A DNA stretch of 64,000 bases from a virus. Under the pieces are notes generated by a model. It was not told the origin of the DNA, did no database searches, and worked only from the letters and a program-made list of their open reading frames with translations. The stretch lies in UHGV virus genome UHGV-0222911, one strand, 5' to 3'. Both the position numbers and the translations under genes were made by a program. Shown here piece after piece: positions 22,995 to 54,458 of the stretch (its first letter is position 1; every line of letters starts with the position of its first letter).

Positions 22995-25361
22995 ATGCGC
23001 ATGGTAAATGACCACGCAGAAGTGATTAAGAGTTCAACTTCTTTAGAGACGTCTCAAGCACAGATTACAATGACACCTGAGATGTTCAGCCTTTTGAGTT
23101 CTGGTGTATATACCTTTAAAGAAAGGGCAGTGATTCGTGAACTGTCATGTAATGCAGTAGATGCTCAGAAAGAAGCTGGAAAAGAAAACATCCCGTTCCA
23201 TGTGCATTTACCTACTCGATTTGAGCCTTACTTTGAAGTCCGTGACTTTGGAACTGGTTTAACCCATGACAAAGTAATGAGTTTGTATCTGAACTACGGT
23301 GCTTCTACGAAGAATGACTCTAATGACTACATTGGTGCAATGGGTATCGGCTCAAAGTCACCGTTTGCAATTGCTCAGTCATTCACAGTATCTAGCTATG
23401 TTGATGGTGTTGTTAATAAGTACTCTGTTTACCTTGAGAATGGTATCCCTCAAGTAACTAAGCTTACTACTAACCAAACAAATGAACCTAATGGTTTAGC
23501 GGTACGTGTGGCAGTTGCTGACCACCGTATCTCAAAGTTCTTTGAAGAAGCTGGGAATGTGTACTCATACTTCACTGTAAAACCAGAAAGTAATATTGAG
23601 TACGACGATGTATTAGCAGATATGAACGTCATTGCCCGTGAAGAAGGTGTTTATGATGCCATGATTCATAAGCAAAGCTGGCGTTCTAGTGGTAACAGGA
23701 CAGAGTTTAATGTGGTGATGGGTAATATTGCCTATCCAGTGAACATGGAAGCATTACTTGGTGATGATTTCTTCAAAGTCTTGCCAGAGTTTTTCCGTAG
23801 GAGCGTAGACCTTGTAAACATCTACATGCCTATTGGTTCAGTTGCTATAGCAGCTTCTCGTGAAGCATTGCAGATGAATGACACGACAAAAAATGTTATC
23901 ATTGAGGCTACTAAAAAGATAACTGAAGCCATTACAAAGGATGTTATCAAGAAAGTTAATAGCCAACCTACACTCATGGATGCTGCACAGGCTTATGCAG
24001 AGTTACGTTTGAACTCACGAGAGATGTTTAATGCTGTGTGTCCAAAGCTAGAGTGGGGAGGCGTTAAGCTTGATTCTCTGGAAGAAGAATTGTTAAACAT
24101 TCGTCGTGGAATTATCTACGCAGAAGACGGCTCAGTCATTTATGAACGTGACGGTAAAGGCAATATTAAGGTTGATAGGAACGGGAACAATATCCCTAAA
24201 GTAGATTATCTTTATGACCCAGTTGCTTATGTCAAGTTCAACTCTTTAGAGAGTAAGATTCGTGCAACAGCACTTTCCTACACTCAAGAGGCAAGCATGT
24301 TCAATATCTTTGGTGCAATGCGTAAAAGCCAAATTGAACAGTTTTTGTTCGTGATTAATGACCGTCGCAATAAAAACGGTACTGAGAAGACTGTAGGACG
24401 CAATCAAATTTTGCGTGGTGCATGTCGAGACTACGCCAGTGAGTCAAATCTGTTTCACAGATACAATGGTATTGTCTTTGTATTCTCTACAGAGAAAGAG
24501 CTAGATGACTTAATCAATCTGCACAAACTTGATAAAAGCTTGTTAAAGATTGTGAAGATGTCTGATAAGGAACATCACTATCAGCGTAAAGAAGCTGTAA
24601 GAGGTGTTGTAAAACTCTGGAAAGCTGTTCCAGCAGAAGGTGTAGCTTCCTATAAAGAGGTTTCAGAGGACTTTGATACAATTGAAGAACCTCAGCTTTA
24701 CATTAAGGCAGTTGGTGACACAGTTGACGGTGAATGTTTTTGCTCATCTCCAGAAGATGTAGCCAAGTCAGTTGCTAATGTTATAGGGAAGACAGTCTAT
24801 GTTTTCCGAAAAGCAAATTGGAAAAAGATACCAGAAGACTGGATTGAAGTAGACGAGAAACTCTTGAACGACAGCTTAACTGACGTTCACTGGATTAACC
24901 ATAACAGATATATGACACGTATCTATATGAATGGTGTCCTCGACCTTACAAGCAGTTGGATTATTGCCAGAAACTTTACGTTCAATAACAGGAAGATTTC
25001 TCGTGGCTATTGCTATTCACGAGACACAAACAAAACTATCTTCTTAGAAGGCAATGAAGATGCTGTTGAGGCAATGTTTGGTAAAATCCAATACGTTGCT
25101 GCACCGTTTGCATACACTTACACTATTAGTAGATTGCAAACTTTGAAAGAATGCCTTGACAATGATACAAAACTGTACAAGAAAATTAAGAAAGCTGGTG
25201 ACCGCATGGTCATTAAGGTGACAAACTACCTTTCAAAAAGAAAACAAGAAAACTTCTTGCTTTCACACTTAGATTGGAATAAAGTGTCACCCATCGAAGT
25301 GAGTAAGTTCTTAGGCTTTGATGTGAAGTGTGTTCCAGAAGGGACTACAATTTACGATTAA
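22995..25361 (+). CDS. rIIA: rIIA-like protein with GHKL (histidine-kinase-like) ATPase domain
   Basis: 788 aa; N-box IRELSCNAVDA, G1 box VRDFGTGL, G2 box GAMGIGSKSPF; followed by rIIB-like gene. Confidence 0.6.
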   Translation: MRMVNDHAEVIKSSTSLETSQAQITMTPEMFSLLSSGVYTFKERAVIRELSCNAVDAQKEAGKENIPFHVHLPTRFEPYFEVRDFGTGLTHDKVMSLYLNYGASTKNDSNDYIGAMGIGSKSPFAIAQSFTVSSYVDGVVNKYSVYLENGIPQVTKLTTNQTNEPNGLAVRVAVADHRISKFFEEAGNVYSYFTVKPESNIEYDDVLADMNVIAREEGVYDAMIHKQSWRSSGNRTEFNVVMGNIAYPVNMEALLGDDFFKVLPEFFRRSVDLVNIYMPIGSVAIAASREALQMNDTTKNVIIEATKKITEAITKDVIKKVNSQPTLMDAAQAYAELRLNSREMFNAVCPKLEWGGVKLDSLEEELLNIRRGIIYAEDGSVIYERDGKGNIKVDRNGNNIPKVDYLYDPVAYVKFNSLESKIRATALSYTQEASMFNIFGAMRKSQIEQFLFVINDRRNKNGTEKTVGRNQILRGACRDYASESNLFHRYNGIVFVFSTEKELDDLINLHKLDKSLLKIVKMSDKEHHYQRKEAVRGVVKLWKAVPAEGVASYKEVSEDFDTIEEPQLYIKAVGDTVDGECFCSSPEDVAKSVANVIGKTVYVFRKANWKKIPEDWIEVDEKLLNDSLTDVHWINHNRYMTRIYMNGVLDLTSSWIIARNFTFNNRKISRGYCYSRDTNKTIFLEGNEDAVEAMFGKIQYVAAPFAYTYTISRLQTLKECLDNDTKLYKKIKKAGDRMVIKVTNYLSKRKQENFLLSHLDWNKVSPIEVSKFLGFDVKCVPEGTTIYD

Positions 25362-25440
25362 AGTGTTTGACAAGGGGCTTCAAAGCCCCTTAGAATAGCC
25401 TTACAAAATGATTTATTAACTAACAAGAGAGAGTAATAAG

Positions 25441-26346
25441 ATGACTACTAAAACTAAAGCACAGATTGACGCAGAAATTTACGAACTGGTTAAAGAAGGT
25501 AAGCTGACTAAAACAGCTATTGCACAGAAGTTCAATACTTCAACCCGTTCAGTTGGTCGTGCTGTAGAGCGTCATGAAGCAACCTTAAAAGGTAAGAAGA
25601 AGGCGACTTCTACACCAGCTAAGAAGACCCTAAAACAAGTTGCTAAGTCAGTTAAAAAGAAAGCTGACAAACCAGTTGAAAAGGCCGTTAAAGACGCTGT
25701 ACAGAAAGCTCCAGTAAATAAACTGCATGAAGCTATGCAGAAAGATGACAAGATTGAGTACATGATTACTGGTGACTCTGTAATTATGACTTACGGTTCA
25801 GAATCTGAAATTGTTGAGTCTACTCATCCGAACTATCAAGAGATTGTAGTTCATGTTGTGAAAGGTGAGTTCAAGAAAGCATTTGAACTGATGAACATTC
25901 GTAAGTCTATCGAAAACTTCACTCAGGGTGCTATCACAATCAAAGGTGACAAGCTCTTCTACGGTGCTGTTGAGATGCGTTCTACTCTGGTTGACCGTAT
26001 TCTTCACATGATGAAAACTGGTGATAAAGGTTTTGAACGACTTGTAATGTTCTTCGAAAAACTGATGGAAAACCCATCTAAAGATTCTGTAGAACAACTT
26101 TGGGGATTTGTATCTCACCTTGATGTTGAAATTGATGAAGAAGGTTACATCATTGGTTGGAAGAAAGTCTCTACTCGTGAAGGCAAGCTGGTTGACTCTC
26201 ACACCTACAAAGTGCCTAATGATTTGGGTAACATTGTAGAGATGCCACGTTGGATGGTTGATAACAACCGTAACGTAACTTGCTCTCAAGGTCTTCATGT
26301 TGGCGCTTGGATTATGTTCGTTGCTTCTCAGGTGATACCATCCTGA
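25441..26346 (+). CDS. rIIB: rIIB-like protein, 5' portion (reading frame interrupted near 26302-26310)
   Basis: 301 aa ORF downstream of rIIA-like gene; C-terminal TCSQGLHV then frame is lost; continuation is in overlapping frame. Confidence 0.5.
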   Translation: MTTKTKAQIDAEIYELVKEGKLTKTAIAQKFNTSTRSVGRAVERHEATLKGKKKATSTPAKKTLKQVAKSVKKKADKPVEKAVKDAVQKAPVNKLHEAMQKDDKIEYMITGDSVIMTYGSESEIVESTHPNYQEIVVHVVKGEFKKAFELMNIRKSIENFTQGAITIKGDKLFYGAVEMRSTLVDRILHMMKTGDKGFERLVMFFEKLMENPSKDSVEQLWGFVSHLDVEIDEEGYIIGWKKVSTREGKLVDSHTYKVPNDLGNIVEMPRWMVDNNRNVTCSQGLHVGAWIMFVASQVIPS

Positions 26347-26549
26347 AGGTTCGTGTCCATCCACGAGATGTTGTATCCGTACCAACTGATTACAACGATA
26401 TGAAGATGCGTTCCTCTCGTTATGAAGTTGCAGCAATCGTTGATAATCAACGTAAAGTGCTGAAAGCATGGGATGGTAAGACTGAAGCTTTGCATGTCAT
26501 CGTTGGCACTGCTGGTGAACTTATCTCTCAACGTAAACGTGAAATCTAA
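26310..26549 (+). CDS. rIIB: rIIB-like protein, 3' portion in shifted frame
   Basis: Frame-0 translation DYVRCFSGDTILKVRVHPRDVVSVPTDYNDMKMR... continues the rIIB-like sequence; no ATG at its 5' end. Confidence 0.4.
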   Translation, partial: DYVRCFSGDTILKVRVHPRDVVSVPTDYNDMKMRSSRYEVAAIVDNQRKVLKAWDGKTEALHVIVGTAGELISQRKREI

Positions 26550-26564
26550 TAAGTAATTTCTTAA

Positions 26565-26590
26565 AAGGCTGCTTCGGCGGCCTTTTTTAT
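26565..26590 (+). terminator. rho-independent terminator-like hairpin
   Basis: AAGGCTGC-TTCG-GCGGCC followed by TTTTTTATTT. Confidence 0.45.
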
Positions 26591-53771: not shown

Positions 53772-54458
53772 ATGAAAGAGATGACAGAACAAGGTAAGGA
53801 GATTTTTAATCTCTTAAAAACTGGTAAAGGGTTTTCTAACCCCCTTATTACTGGTGCAGCAGTTCTCGGTGGAACCGTAGCTGCCTCTACATCACTTGTA
53901 AGCTCTATTAGCTCTGTATCAGACCCTACAGTAAAGGATAAGCTTGTTGCTGCTGGACTTACAACAGTTCTGCTTAACAGCTTTACCACGAGTCTGACAA
54001 GCACTACATCAACTACCAAAACACTGACAGATTACGGTCAAAAGTCCATTGATGAGTTTTCATCACGTATGCAGGTAGCAAAAGGTTATTCTAATGTTAT
54101 GGGTGCAGCAGGTGAACAAGTTGGCTGTACACCATTTAGTGGTATTATGGGTGTTGCTACAGAGTATGGTCAAAAAGCTATTGATACGATTAATAGTGCA
54201 CTAGACGGTGTTAATGATGTATTAAGTGACTTACAAGACGCTATTGACAAAGGTCTTGATACTATTTCTGATTTAGCTAACCAAGCTGTTAGTAAGATTA
54301 ATGAAGGTATCTCGAAGATTACAGCTTATGCAGATGAAGTTGTGCAGATGATTGAAGAAGAAGCTGCCCTTATTGCAGAGTACCTTAAAACGAATATCAA
54401 TGGGTTCTTAGCAGGTATCTACCAGACTGGTTTGATGATGCTTGTAAAACTGGTGTAA
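53772..54458 (+). CDS. hypothetical Ser/Thr-rich protein with N-terminal hydrophobic region
   Basis: Track ORF 53709.. overlaps tRNA-Phe; trimmed to MKEMTEQGKEIF; 228 aa. Confidence 0.4.
   Translation: MKEMTEQGKEIFNLLKTGKGFSNPLITGAAVLGGTVAASTSLVSSISSVSDPTVKDKLVAAGLTTVLLNSFTTSLTSTTSTTKTLTDYGQKSIDEFSSRMQVAKGYSNVMGAAGEQVGCTPFSGIMGVATEYGQKAIDTINSALDGVNDVLSDLQDAIDKGLDTISDLANQAVSKINEGISKITAYADEVVQMIEEEAALIAEYLKTNINGFLAGIYQTGLMMLVKLV

What the first reader, a model, noticed from the sequence alone, without database searches (positions are those of the whole stretch)
25441..26549. rIIB-like gene is split by a frameshift near 26302-26310
The rIIB-like ORF ends ...TCSQGLHVGAWIMFVASQVIPS* while the overlapping frame continues with ...DYVRCFSGDTILKVRVHPRDVVSVPTDYNDMKMR..., which reads as the natural continuation of an rIIB C-terminal region (my recollection of T4 rIIB supports this but is unverified). 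The two frames can be joined only by a 1-nt shift in the 8-nt segment GGCGCTTG, which has no homopolymer or obvious slippery heptamer. Possibilities are a sequencing error, a genuine inactivating mutation in a gene classically dispensable on some hosts, or recoding.
Basis: partly seen in the sequence, partly recalled or inferred. Interest (0 to 1): 0.45.

Follow-up and report, generated by a model that had tools for sequence, protein, structure and literature searches.

The report
Real one-base deletion breaks phage rIIB
A wild relative of phage Felix O1 carries a genuine, inherited one-base deletion that cuts off the most conserved end of its rIIB gene. This is an ordinary natural knock-out of a dispensable anti-defence gene, not a sequencing error or a recoding signal.

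Summary
The window is a Felixounavirus genome. Its rIIB gene (25441-26549, +) is 1109 nt, whereas relatives carry an intact 1110-nt, 369-aa gene.

- **The lesion.** One G is missing from an ancestral GGG (relatives GCTTGGGAT, window GCTTGGAT; GG = 26309-26310). The result is a 301-aa product: 290 native residues plus 11 out-of-frame residues. The last 79 native codons are stranded in the -1 frame.
- **Not an assembly error.** The identical allele is found in contigs from at least two BioSamples, in Logan contigs of run SRR5935990 and in three ENA assemblies. Two genotypes that differ by one SNP both carry it.
- **Not recoding.** There is no slippery heptamer and no stimulatory structure (z = 0.21). 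Every relative checked has a single ORF.
- **Likely effect.** The break lies inside the family's most conserved block. It removes 7-8 of the 17-19 invariant residues and seven confidently modelled beta-strands, so loss of function is likely.
- **Why the phage survives.** In the Felixounavirus Bas63, a preprint identifies rIIA/B as counters of the QatABCD defence, and deletion mutants of either gene were made and plated.

This is ordinary and of low interest. Side notes: a second private 1-nt deletion at 54420, and several other broken rII alleles in public data.

The parts
22995..25361 (+). rIIA homologue, intact (788 aa); the functional partner of rIIB
   Evidence: ORF. It has the same 2367-nt length as the CDS annotated 'RIIA lysis inhibitor' in relatives. 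The protein-level frameshift scan found no break in it.
25367..25396 (+). Promoter-like site upstream of rIIB (TTGACA-18-TAGAAT, 11 of 12 matches)
   Evidence: Consensus scan. This is a consensus match only; function was not shown.
25441..26310 (+). rIIB codons 1-290 in the native frame: N-terminal helix-turn-helix, Lys-rich linker, and the first part of the conserved rIIB core, ending ...GLHVGAW
   Evidence: PHROG 609 'RIIB lysis inhibitor', E = 4.6e-69, profile positions 755-998. Precomputed PF26926 Phage_T4_rIIB.
26309..26310 (+). Lesion: GG where relatives have GGG (a 1-nt deletion between Trp290 TGG and Asp291 GAT)
   Evidence: Alignment A1 and blastn gap list. In the 121-nt search (172 matching phage records) none reaches 100% identity, and the 12 best-scoring rows all span 122 nt against the window's 121. 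The intact pattern occurs in 13 IMG/VR contigs. The deleted pattern occurs in none of IMG/VR, GTDB genomes or JGI metagenomes.
26311..26346 (+). Out-of-frame tail IMFVASQVIPS plus the TGA stop of the truncated 301-aa product
26310..26549 (+). Stranded C-terminal 79 codons of rIIB in the -1 frame (DYVRCFSGDT...SQRKREI*), with no ribosome-binding site or good start codon of their own
   Evidence: 100% protein identity to the relative. PHROG 609 positions 999-1049, E = 7.6e-13. Holds invariant family residues Y292, P308, D310, V312, P315, K322, R324, Y328.
26563..26586 (+). Terminator-like hairpin followed by a T run, closing the rIIB transcription unit after both fragments
   Evidence: 10-pair stem, TTCG loop, T tail. 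Sequence read.

Best explanation
The window comes from a wild Felixounavirus (a Felix O1-like myovirus of E. coli and Salmonella). Its rIIB gene carries a genuine, heritable 1-nt deletion, GGG to GG at 26309-26310.

Translation from the ATG at 25441 makes 290 native residues, then 11 out-of-frame residues, and stops at 26344-26346. The last 79 native codons are not translated. The lost part holds the most conserved motifs of the rIIB family and most of the beta-strands of its C-terminal domain, so the product is most likely non-functional or strongly impaired.

The phage remains viable because rII genes are conditionally dispensable. They are needed only on hosts that carry particular abortive-infection or defence systems: RexAB for T4, and QatABCD for the Felixounavirus Bas63.

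- **Shown here:** the deletion itself, its presence in several samples, and the position of the break relative to family conservation and the structure model.
- **Inferred:** loss of function, and tolerance of the loss because the natural host lacks the relevant defence.
For: 1. **The lesion is one missing G.**
   - Relatives have an intact 1110-nt, 369-aa rIIB; the window differs by one missing G.
   - In the 121-nt search (172 matching phage records), none reaches 100% identity. The 12 best-scoring rows all span 122 nt against the window's 121.
2. **The allele is reproducible.**
   - The exact 301-aa protein is on 8 contigs. These include ENA assemblies of BioSamples SAMN07509848 (an 87,967-bp scaffold) and SAMN07509879. 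They also include a further ENA assembly with k119-style contig names and Logan contigs of SRR5935990.
   - All of these contigs contain the deleted sequence.
3. **The allele is inherited.** Two genotypes that differ by one SNP (window 19985, A or G) both carry the deletion.
4. **The assembly is otherwise clean.** A protein-level scan of all 64 kb against phage Pr103Blw found only one other broken real CDS.
5. **The break is in the conserved core.**
   - It sits inside the family's most conserved block, TCSxGLHVGAW|xYVxxFSGDT...DVVSVP.DYN..KMR..Y.V.
   - 8 of 19 (A3) and 7 of 17 (A4) invariant columns lie downstream of it, and T4 rIIB aligns through this block.
   - The equivalent cut in T4 rIIB is after residue 261 of 312.
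6. **Structure model.** The AlphaFold2 model of the intact protein has 10-residue-block mean pLDDT of 91-98 over residues 271-369. Seven strands (300-306 through 361-366) lie after the break.
7. **The event looks recent.** The stranded 79 codons are 100% identical in protein to a relative.
8. **Dispensability.** In Bas63, deleting either rII homologue (g84 or g85) lowers plating 10^4-10^5-fold on a qatABCD host, and this is largely restored by complementation (bioRxiv 10.1101/2024.10.10.617714). An rIIAB mutant of T4 is blocked by RexAB while wild type is not (bioRxiv 10.1101/2021.03.08.434280).
9. **Precedent.** Other disrupted rII alleles exist in public data.
Against: - I could not see raw reads or learn the sequencing platform, so a systematic platform-specific deletion error that repeats across samples is not formally excluded.
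- The relation between the samples (same subject, same batch, possible cross-contamination) is unknown.
- Loss of function is inferred from conservation and a predicted structure. Nothing here tests whether a 290-residue rIIB keeps partial activity.
- The link from Bas63 g84/g85 to this gene rests on the preprint's description and shared genus. I did not align the Bas63 sequence.
Confidence: 0.8

Rival explanations
1. Sequencing or assembly artefact: the phage really has GGG and an intact rIIB, and the consensus dropped one G.
For: - The deletion is in a short homopolymer.
- A second 1-nt deletion in a short run (TT to T at 54420) exists in the same window, and every full-length row listed (57 of a 60-row spread over 224 records) has the extra base.
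- The allele is absent from IMG/VR, GTDB genomes and JGI metagenomes.
Against: - The same allele appears in contigs of at least two BioSamples, in Logan contigs of one run and in three ENA assemblies with two different contig-naming styles.
- Two SNP genotypes share it.
- Only two real CDSs are broken in 64 kb, and both breaks are at 2-3-nt runs. Several 1-nt differences at longer A runs fall outside the broken CDSs. That is not the profile of a technology prone to homopolymer errors.
- The second truncated protein is also found in a further run, SRR5946822.
Confidence: 0.09
2. The truncated 301-aa rIIB is a working or partly working variant, or the two fragments are made separately and reassemble, so rII function is kept.
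For: - The N-terminal 290 residues, including the helix-turn-helix and half of the core, are intact.
- The C-terminal codons are still undamaged.
- An unrelated lineage (L029) has an independent frameshift only about 8-10 nt upstream, giving the same frame and the same out-of-frame stop.
- Gene callers call the C fragment from a TTG at 26307.
Against: - Seven to eight family-invariant residues and seven beta-strands are lost.
- No Shine-Dalgarno sequence precedes the TTG at 26307, and no in-frame start codon lies near the upstream stop (sequence).
- Undamaged C-terminal codons are equally expected for a recent lesion.
- About ten disrupted alleles are known across the gene, so two falling within 10 nt is not statistically remarkable.
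Confidence: 0.07
3. Recoding: ribosomes shift -1 at UGG-A (re-reading the G at 26310) and make full-length rIIB at a useful level.
For: A -1 shift immediately after the Trp codon would restore the exact ancestral protein.
Against: - There is no X XXY YYZ heptamer. After a -1 slip the Trp tRNA would face UUG and the Ile tRNA would face GAU, which is poor pairing (sequence).
- The downstream 105 nt fold no better than shuffled sequence (z = 0.21).
- No Rfam element lies at the site.
- Relatives with the same flanking sequence have an ordinary single ORF, so no signal can have evolved.
- A GG run is far too short for transcriptional slippage.
Confidence: 0.03

Closest known systems
Spontaneous frameshift rIIB mutants of phage T4 (Benzer; Crick, Barnett, Brenner and Watts-Tobin 1961)
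   Same: It is the same gene family, aligned to T4 rIIB at 35% identity through the conserved block. It is the same kind of lesion: a single-base indel that shifts the frame and ends at a nearby out-of-frame stop. The expected phenotype is also the same, namely viable on permissive hosts and restricted on hosts with a matching abortive-infection system (my knowledge of the classical work; for the RexAB phenotype).
   Different: This allele occurs naturally in metagenome-assembled Felixounavirus genomes, not in a laboratory T4 stock. It lies in the conserved C-terminal core, equivalent to after T4 residue 261 of 312. The classical code experiments used the dispensable start of the B cistron. 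No phenotype was measured here.
rIIA/rIIB homologues g85/g84 of Felixounavirus Bas63 (PhageMaP preprint, 10.1101/2024.10.10.617714)
   Same: Same genus and the same rIIA-rIIB gene pair. Each gene could be deleted and the mutants plated, and each is needed to plate on a host carrying QatABCD. This gives the most direct prediction for what the truncation costs this phage.
   Different: Those were engineered whole-gene deletions; here the lesion is a natural C-terminal truncation. I did not align the Bas63 sequence with the window.
Programmed -1 ribosomal frameshifting in phage genes (for example the tail-assembly chaperones G/GT of lambda-like phages)
   Same: Two overlapping frames that would join into one protein through a -1 shift.
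   Different: There is no slippery heptamer, no stimulatory structure, and no conservation of the two-frame arrangement. Relatives have one ORF.

Membership tests
rIIB protein family (Pfam PF26926 Phage_T4_rIIB; PHROG 609) | Significant match to the family profile | tested here: met
   PHROG 609 'RIIB lysis inhibitor': intact relative E = 1.9e-89, window N fragment 4.6e-69, window C fragment 7.6e-13. Precomputed PF26926 hits on both fragments. The local Pfam copy gave no rIIB-family hit.
rIIB protein family (Pfam PF26926 Phage_T4_rIIB; PHROG 609) | Aligns with T4 rIIB through the conserved core motifs (NPS..., TCSxGLHV, DVVSVPxDYNxxKMR) | tested here: met
   Alignment A3 of 19 proteins including T4 rIIB: 35% identity to T4, with 19 invariant columns. 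Confirmed with 42 proteins in A4.
rIIB protein family (Pfam PF26926 Phage_T4_rIIB; PHROG 609) | Encoded immediately downstream of rIIA in the same orientation | tested here: met
   The 788-aa ORF at 22995-25361 lies directly upstream. It is annotated as RIIA in relatives. I ran no rIIA profile on it myself; the Pfam scan gave nothing significant.
rIIB protein family (Pfam PF26926 Phage_T4_rIIB; PHROG 609) | Function: lets the phage grow on hosts with RexAB-like or QatABCD defences | not testable with these tools
   Literature only.
Frameshift null allele (pseudogene) of a conserved gene | An indel whose length is not a multiple of 3, relative to intact orthologues | tested here: met
   One G missing. 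Relatives have 1110 nt and the window 1109 nt.
Frameshift null allele (pseudogene) of a conserved gene | The lesion is real and heritable, not specific to one assembly | tested here: met
   Eight contigs; two BioSamples plus Logan run SRR5935990; Logan contigs and three ENA assemblies; two SNP genotypes share it. Raw reads were not inspected.
Frameshift null allele (pseudogene) of a conserved gene | Removes parts needed for function | tested here: inconclusive
   It removes 7-8 invariant residues and seven confidently modelled strands. This makes loss of function likely, but there is no functional assay.
Programmed -1 ribosomal frameshift site | Slippery heptamer X XXY YYZ at the shift point | tested here: not met
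   The sequence at the junction is GCU UGG AUU AUG, which contains no slippery heptamer.
Programmed -1 ribosomal frameshift site | Stimulatory downstream RNA structure | tested here: not met
   Fold of 26296-26400: -23.4 kcal/mol against a shuffle mean of -24.1, z = 0.21. No Rfam match at the site.
Programmed -1 ribosomal frameshift site | The two-frame arrangement is conserved in relatives | tested here: not met
   Relatives checked have a single ORF. Full-length homologues dominate the protein search.

The most novel reading that the evidence does not exclude
The break may not be a random dead allele. The short stretch CATGTTGGxGCxTGGGAT in the rIIB core could be a recurrent mutational target in wild Ounavirinae. 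The window has a G deletion there. An unrelated lineage at about 41% identity (L029, 13 contigs) has a 2-nt GT insertion 8-10 nt upstream, giving the same frame and the same out-of-frame stop.

On this reading, loss or truncation of rIIB is repeatedly selected in natural hosts. Possible reasons are a cost of carrying rII where no Rex- or Qat-type defence is present, or a defence that is triggered by the rIIB C-terminal domain.
Probability: 0.07. Interest if true: 0.45.

Novelty: new member of a known kind. Interest (0 to 1): 0.15.

Why it matters
**Annotation.** These two ORFs should be recorded as one frameshifted rIIB pseudogene, not as two genes and not as a recoding site.

**Biology.** A Felix O1-like phage lacking intact rIIB reached assembly-level abundance in more than one natural sample. 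This fits the view that rII genes are conditionally dispensable counter-defence genes. It predicts that this lineage is restricted on hosts carrying QatABCD-type or Rex-type systems. It adds a natural example to a very old laboratory story and does not change that story.

Tried and rejected
- **Recoding.** I looked for a slippery heptamer in the sequence, folded the downstream 105 nt (z = 0.21) and scanned Rfam permissively. The only Rfam matches were sub-threshold and lay at or near the 3' end of the gene and its terminator. Rejected.
- **Independent downstream gene.** Relatives encode one 369-aa protein, and T4 rIIB aligns through the region.
- **Same allele elsewhere.** Exact-pattern scans of IMG/VR, GTDB genomes and JGI metagenomes found none. 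The intact pattern gave 13 IMG/VR hits as a positive control. The phage collection has no 100% match.
- **Source genome.** It is not in the phage collection. The best matches over 24 kb are 91-94% identical.
- **Sample metadata.** A literature search for the four run and sample accessions found nothing, so subject, time point and platform remain unknown.
- **Fold of the rIIB core.** Foldseek against the PDB gave no match at E <= 0.001. Only the N-terminal helix-turn-helix resembles known DNA-binding domains. The PDB sequence search was also empty.
- **Bas63 accession.** My guess (MZ501111) turned out to be a different phage. I did not pursue it.
- **L029 rIIA split.** The 430-aa second ORF did not match the window's rIIA at E <= 1e-3. 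I therefore cannot say that rIIA is frameshifted in that lineage.

Full report
**1. What is in the sequence**

An ATG ORF runs from 25441 to 26346 (301 aa) and ends ...TCSQGLHVGAWIMFVASQVIPS*. An overlapping frame, shifted by -1, reads ...DYVRCFSGDTILKVRVHPRDVVSVPTDYNDMKMR... and runs to the stop at 26547-26549. That frame is open from 26274.

A 788-aa ORF lies directly upstream at 22995-25361. A promoter-like site (25367-25396, 11 of 12 matches) precedes the pair of fragments. A terminator-like hairpin with a T tail (26563-26586) follows them, so both fragments sit in one transcription unit.

**2. Identity of the genome and the gene**

Megablast of 25300-26700 hits 276 phage records. These are almost all Felixounavirus (Ounavirinae) phages of Escherichia, Salmonella and Shigella, at up to 99.4% identity. 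The matched genes are annotated rIIA and rIIB.

The source genome itself is not in that collection. Over 24 kb the best matches are only 91-94% identical.

In four close relatives the rIIB CDS is a single 1110-nt ORF encoding 369 aa. Profile evidence agrees:
- PHROG 609 'RIIB lysis inhibitor' matches the intact relative at E = 1.9e-89, covering profile positions 755-1048.
- The window's N fragment matches positions 755-998.
- The window's C fragment matches positions 999-1049.
- Precomputed Pfam hits label both fragments PF26926 Phage_T4_rIIB.

An alignment with T4 rIIB and 17 diverse homologues shows 35% identity to T4 and shared core motifs. Membership in the rIIB family is therefore established by test, not by recollection.

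**3. The lesion**

Alignment A1 shows one difference in length. Relatives read GCTTGGGATTAT (Trp-Asp-Tyr) and the window reads GCTTGGATTAT. One G of a G3 run is missing, and the remaining GG is at 26309-26310.

The present sequence has only GG, but the ancestral sequence was GGG.

Re-reading the G at 26310 restores a 369-aa protein with the ancestral ...HVGAWDYVRCFSGDT... junction.

In the 121-nt search (172 matching phage records), none reaches 100% identity. The 12 best-scoring rows all span 122 nt against the window's 121. Exact-pattern scans gave these counts:

| Pattern | IMG/VR | GTDB genomes | JGI metagenomes |
|---|---|---|---|
| Intact (GGG) | 13 contigs | not scanned | not scanned |
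| Deleted (GG) | 0 | 0 | 0 |

**4. Error or real?**

The exact 301-aa truncated protein is on record on 8 contigs:

| Source | Sample or run | Contig | Locus |
|---|---|---|---|
| ENA ERZ28583644 | BioSample SAMN07509848 | 87,967-bp scaffold | L010 |
| ENA ERZ28583467 | BioSample SAMN07509879 | 13,365 bp | L012 |
| ENA ERZ27273115 | not stated | k119-named contig, 9,024 bp | L013 |
| Logan | SRR5935990 | 36,072 bp | L011 |

All of these contigs contain the deleted sequence.
- L010 is identical to the window over its whole length, and L011 over all but its last two bases.
- L012 and L013 share a single SNP (window 19985, A to G).

So two slightly different genotypes, in different samples and assemblies, carry the same deletion. 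That is the signature of an inherited allele.

I also scanned the whole window at the protein level against all ORFs of phage Pr103Blw. Only two real CDSs are broken: rIIB, and one other gene (section 8). Several 1-nt differences at longer A runs fall outside the broken CDSs. This is not the pattern of a technology prone to homopolymer errors.

I could not inspect reads or learn the platform, so I leave about 9% for a systematic artefact.

**5. Recoding?**

A -1 shift right after the Trp codon would give the ancestral protein, but nothing supports it being programmed.
- The junction GCU UGG AUU AUG has no X XXY YYZ heptamer. After a -1 slip the P-site and A-site tRNAs would pair poorly (UUG and GAU).
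- The downstream 105 nt fold no better than shuffles (-23.4 against -24.1 kcal/mol, z = 0.21).
- Rfam finds nothing at the site.
- Relatives with the same flanking sequence have a plain single ORF, so no signal could have evolved.
- A GG run is far too short for transcriptional slippage.

Separate translation of the C fragment is also unlikely. The TTG at 26307 that gene callers use has no Shine-Dalgarno sequence. No in-frame start lies near the upstream stop. The next ATG codons lie about 30 codons into the fragment, at the MKMR motif; starting there would give only about 49 residues and omit the FSGDT and DVVSVP motifs.

**6. Consequence for the protein**

In alignments of 19 (A3) and 42 (A4) diverse homologues, the break between W290 and D291 falls inside the most conserved block of the family. 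That block is TCSxGLHVGAW|xYVxxFSGDT..V.V.P.DVVSVP.DYN..KMR..Y.V.

Invariant residues downstream of the break include Y292, P308, V312, P315, K322, R324 and Y328, plus D310 in A3. That is 8 of 19 invariant columns in A3 and 7 of 17 in A4.

T4 rIIB aligns through this block and ends soon after it. The equivalent cut in T4 would be after residue 261 of 312.

An AlphaFold2 model of the intact protein (mean pLDDT 84.7) has 10-residue-block mean pLDDT of 91-98 over residues 271-369. It places seven beta-strands after the break (300-306, 311-313, 322-325, 327-334, 340-343, 351-355, 361-366).

Loss of these elements makes a folded, working C-terminal domain unlikely. This is inference; no assay was possible.

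The stranded codons are still 100% identical in protein to a relative, so the event is recent.

**7. Why the phage survives**

From established knowledge, T4 rII mutants grow on permissive hosts and fail on lambda lysogens that express RexAB. The BASEL study reconfirms this with an rIIAB fusion mutant.

For this genus specifically, the PhageMaP preprint reports on Bas63 genes 85 and 84, the rIIA/B homologues. It identifies them as counters of QatABCD. Deleting either one lowers plating 10^4-10^5-fold on a qatABCD host, and complementation largely restores it.

The best-supported reading is therefore a natural knock-out of a conditionally dispensable counter-defence gene. It would be tolerated because the host in those samples lacks the matching defence.

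**8. Other things seen**

- **Second private deletion.** The window has a single T at 54420 where relatives have TT. It lies in gene 53772-54458 (DUF7217, PHROG 2114, 'putative membrane protein', among the tRNA genes). It replaces the last 27 residues with 12 others. Every full-length row listed (57 of a 60-row spread over 224 records) has the extra base. The truncated protein is on 6 contigs, including run SRR5946822.
- **Other disrupted rII alleles in public data**:
  - a 2-nt GT insertion 8-10 nt upstream of the homologous site, in a lineage about 41% identical (P0094/L029, 13 contigs);
  - an rIIA::rIIB deletion fusion (P0084);
  - a break at an A5 run (P0059);
  - 75-aa N-terminal fragments ending in the Lys-rich linker (P0021, P0029);
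  - the annotated 'RIIB protein, fragment' of Erwinia phage phiEa104 (P0085).

  With about ten such alleles, two falling within 10 nt is not statistically striking. I rate a hotspot or selection reading at about 7%.
- **No solved fold.** The rIIB core has no match among solved structures. Only the N-terminal helix-turn-helix resembles known DNA-binding domains.

**9. Verdict**

The feature is a genuine frameshift-null, or at least truncating, allele of rIIB in a wild Felixounavirus.

It is a new example of a very well-known kind of event. Its value is for correct annotation and as a small data point on the dispensability of rII in nature. Interest is low.

Noticed in passing
window 53772-54458 (+), lesion at 54420: This is a second private 1-nt deletion. 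The window has a single T where every full-length row listed (57 of a 60-row spread over 224 phage records) has TT (GGTATCTTACCAG becomes GGTATCTACCAG). It lies in a DUF7217 / PHROG 2114 'putative membrane protein' gene among the tRNA genes. The last 27 residues are replaced by 12 out-of-frame residues. The exact truncated protein is on 6 contigs, including Logan run SRR5946822.
   Followed up: partly
L029 3858-3912 (ENA ERZ27313664 k141_143740, 90,242 bp): An rIIB about 41% identical, from another Ounavirinae-like phage (13 contigs), has an independent 2-nt insertion (CATGT[GT]TGGTGCATGGG). It lies only 8-10 nt upstream of the site homologous to the window's deletion, and gives the same frame and the same out-of-frame TGA. 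In that locus the rIIA-like gene also appears as two overlapping ORFs (554-1663 and 1647-2939). I could not confirm that this is a frameshift.
   Followed up: partly
proteins P0084, P0059, P0085, P0018, P0021, P0022, P0025, P0029 (public collections): Further disrupted rII alleles exist in Felixounavirus-like contigs. P0084 fuses rIIA residues 299-437 to rIIB residues 239-369, which resembles T4 r1589. P0059 and P0025 break at an A5 run (ending ...FFEN). P0021 and P0029 are 75-aa N-terminal fragments ending in the Lys-rich linker. P0085 is annotated 'RIIB protein, fragment' in Erwinia phage phiEa104.
   Followed up: partly
window 19985: This is the only SNP (A in the window, L010 and L011; G in L012 and L013) across 9-12 kb between the two sample groups that carry this phage. 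The strain is nearly clonal across samples.
   Followed up: yes
window 25441-25740 (rIIB residues 1-100): Felixounavirus rIIB begins with a three-helix helix-turn-helix (pLDDT about 95). Foldseek gives probability about 0.97 to DeoR and 0.92 to NarL DNA-binding domains, and there is a weak Pfam HTH_Tnp_ISL3 hit. A disordered Lys-rich linker follows. T4 rIIB aligns over the helix-turn-helix. The conserved core has no solved-structure match.
   Followed up: partly
window about 31100-36300: Many copies of a 70-110-nt intergenic repeat end in ...AAACT(A)GGAGATTCAAAATG, that is, a ribosome-binding site plus a start codon. They precede small genes and showed up as multiple cross-matching blastn segments against the relative. 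They are probably the repeated promoter and leader regions of an early-gene cluster.
   Followed up: no
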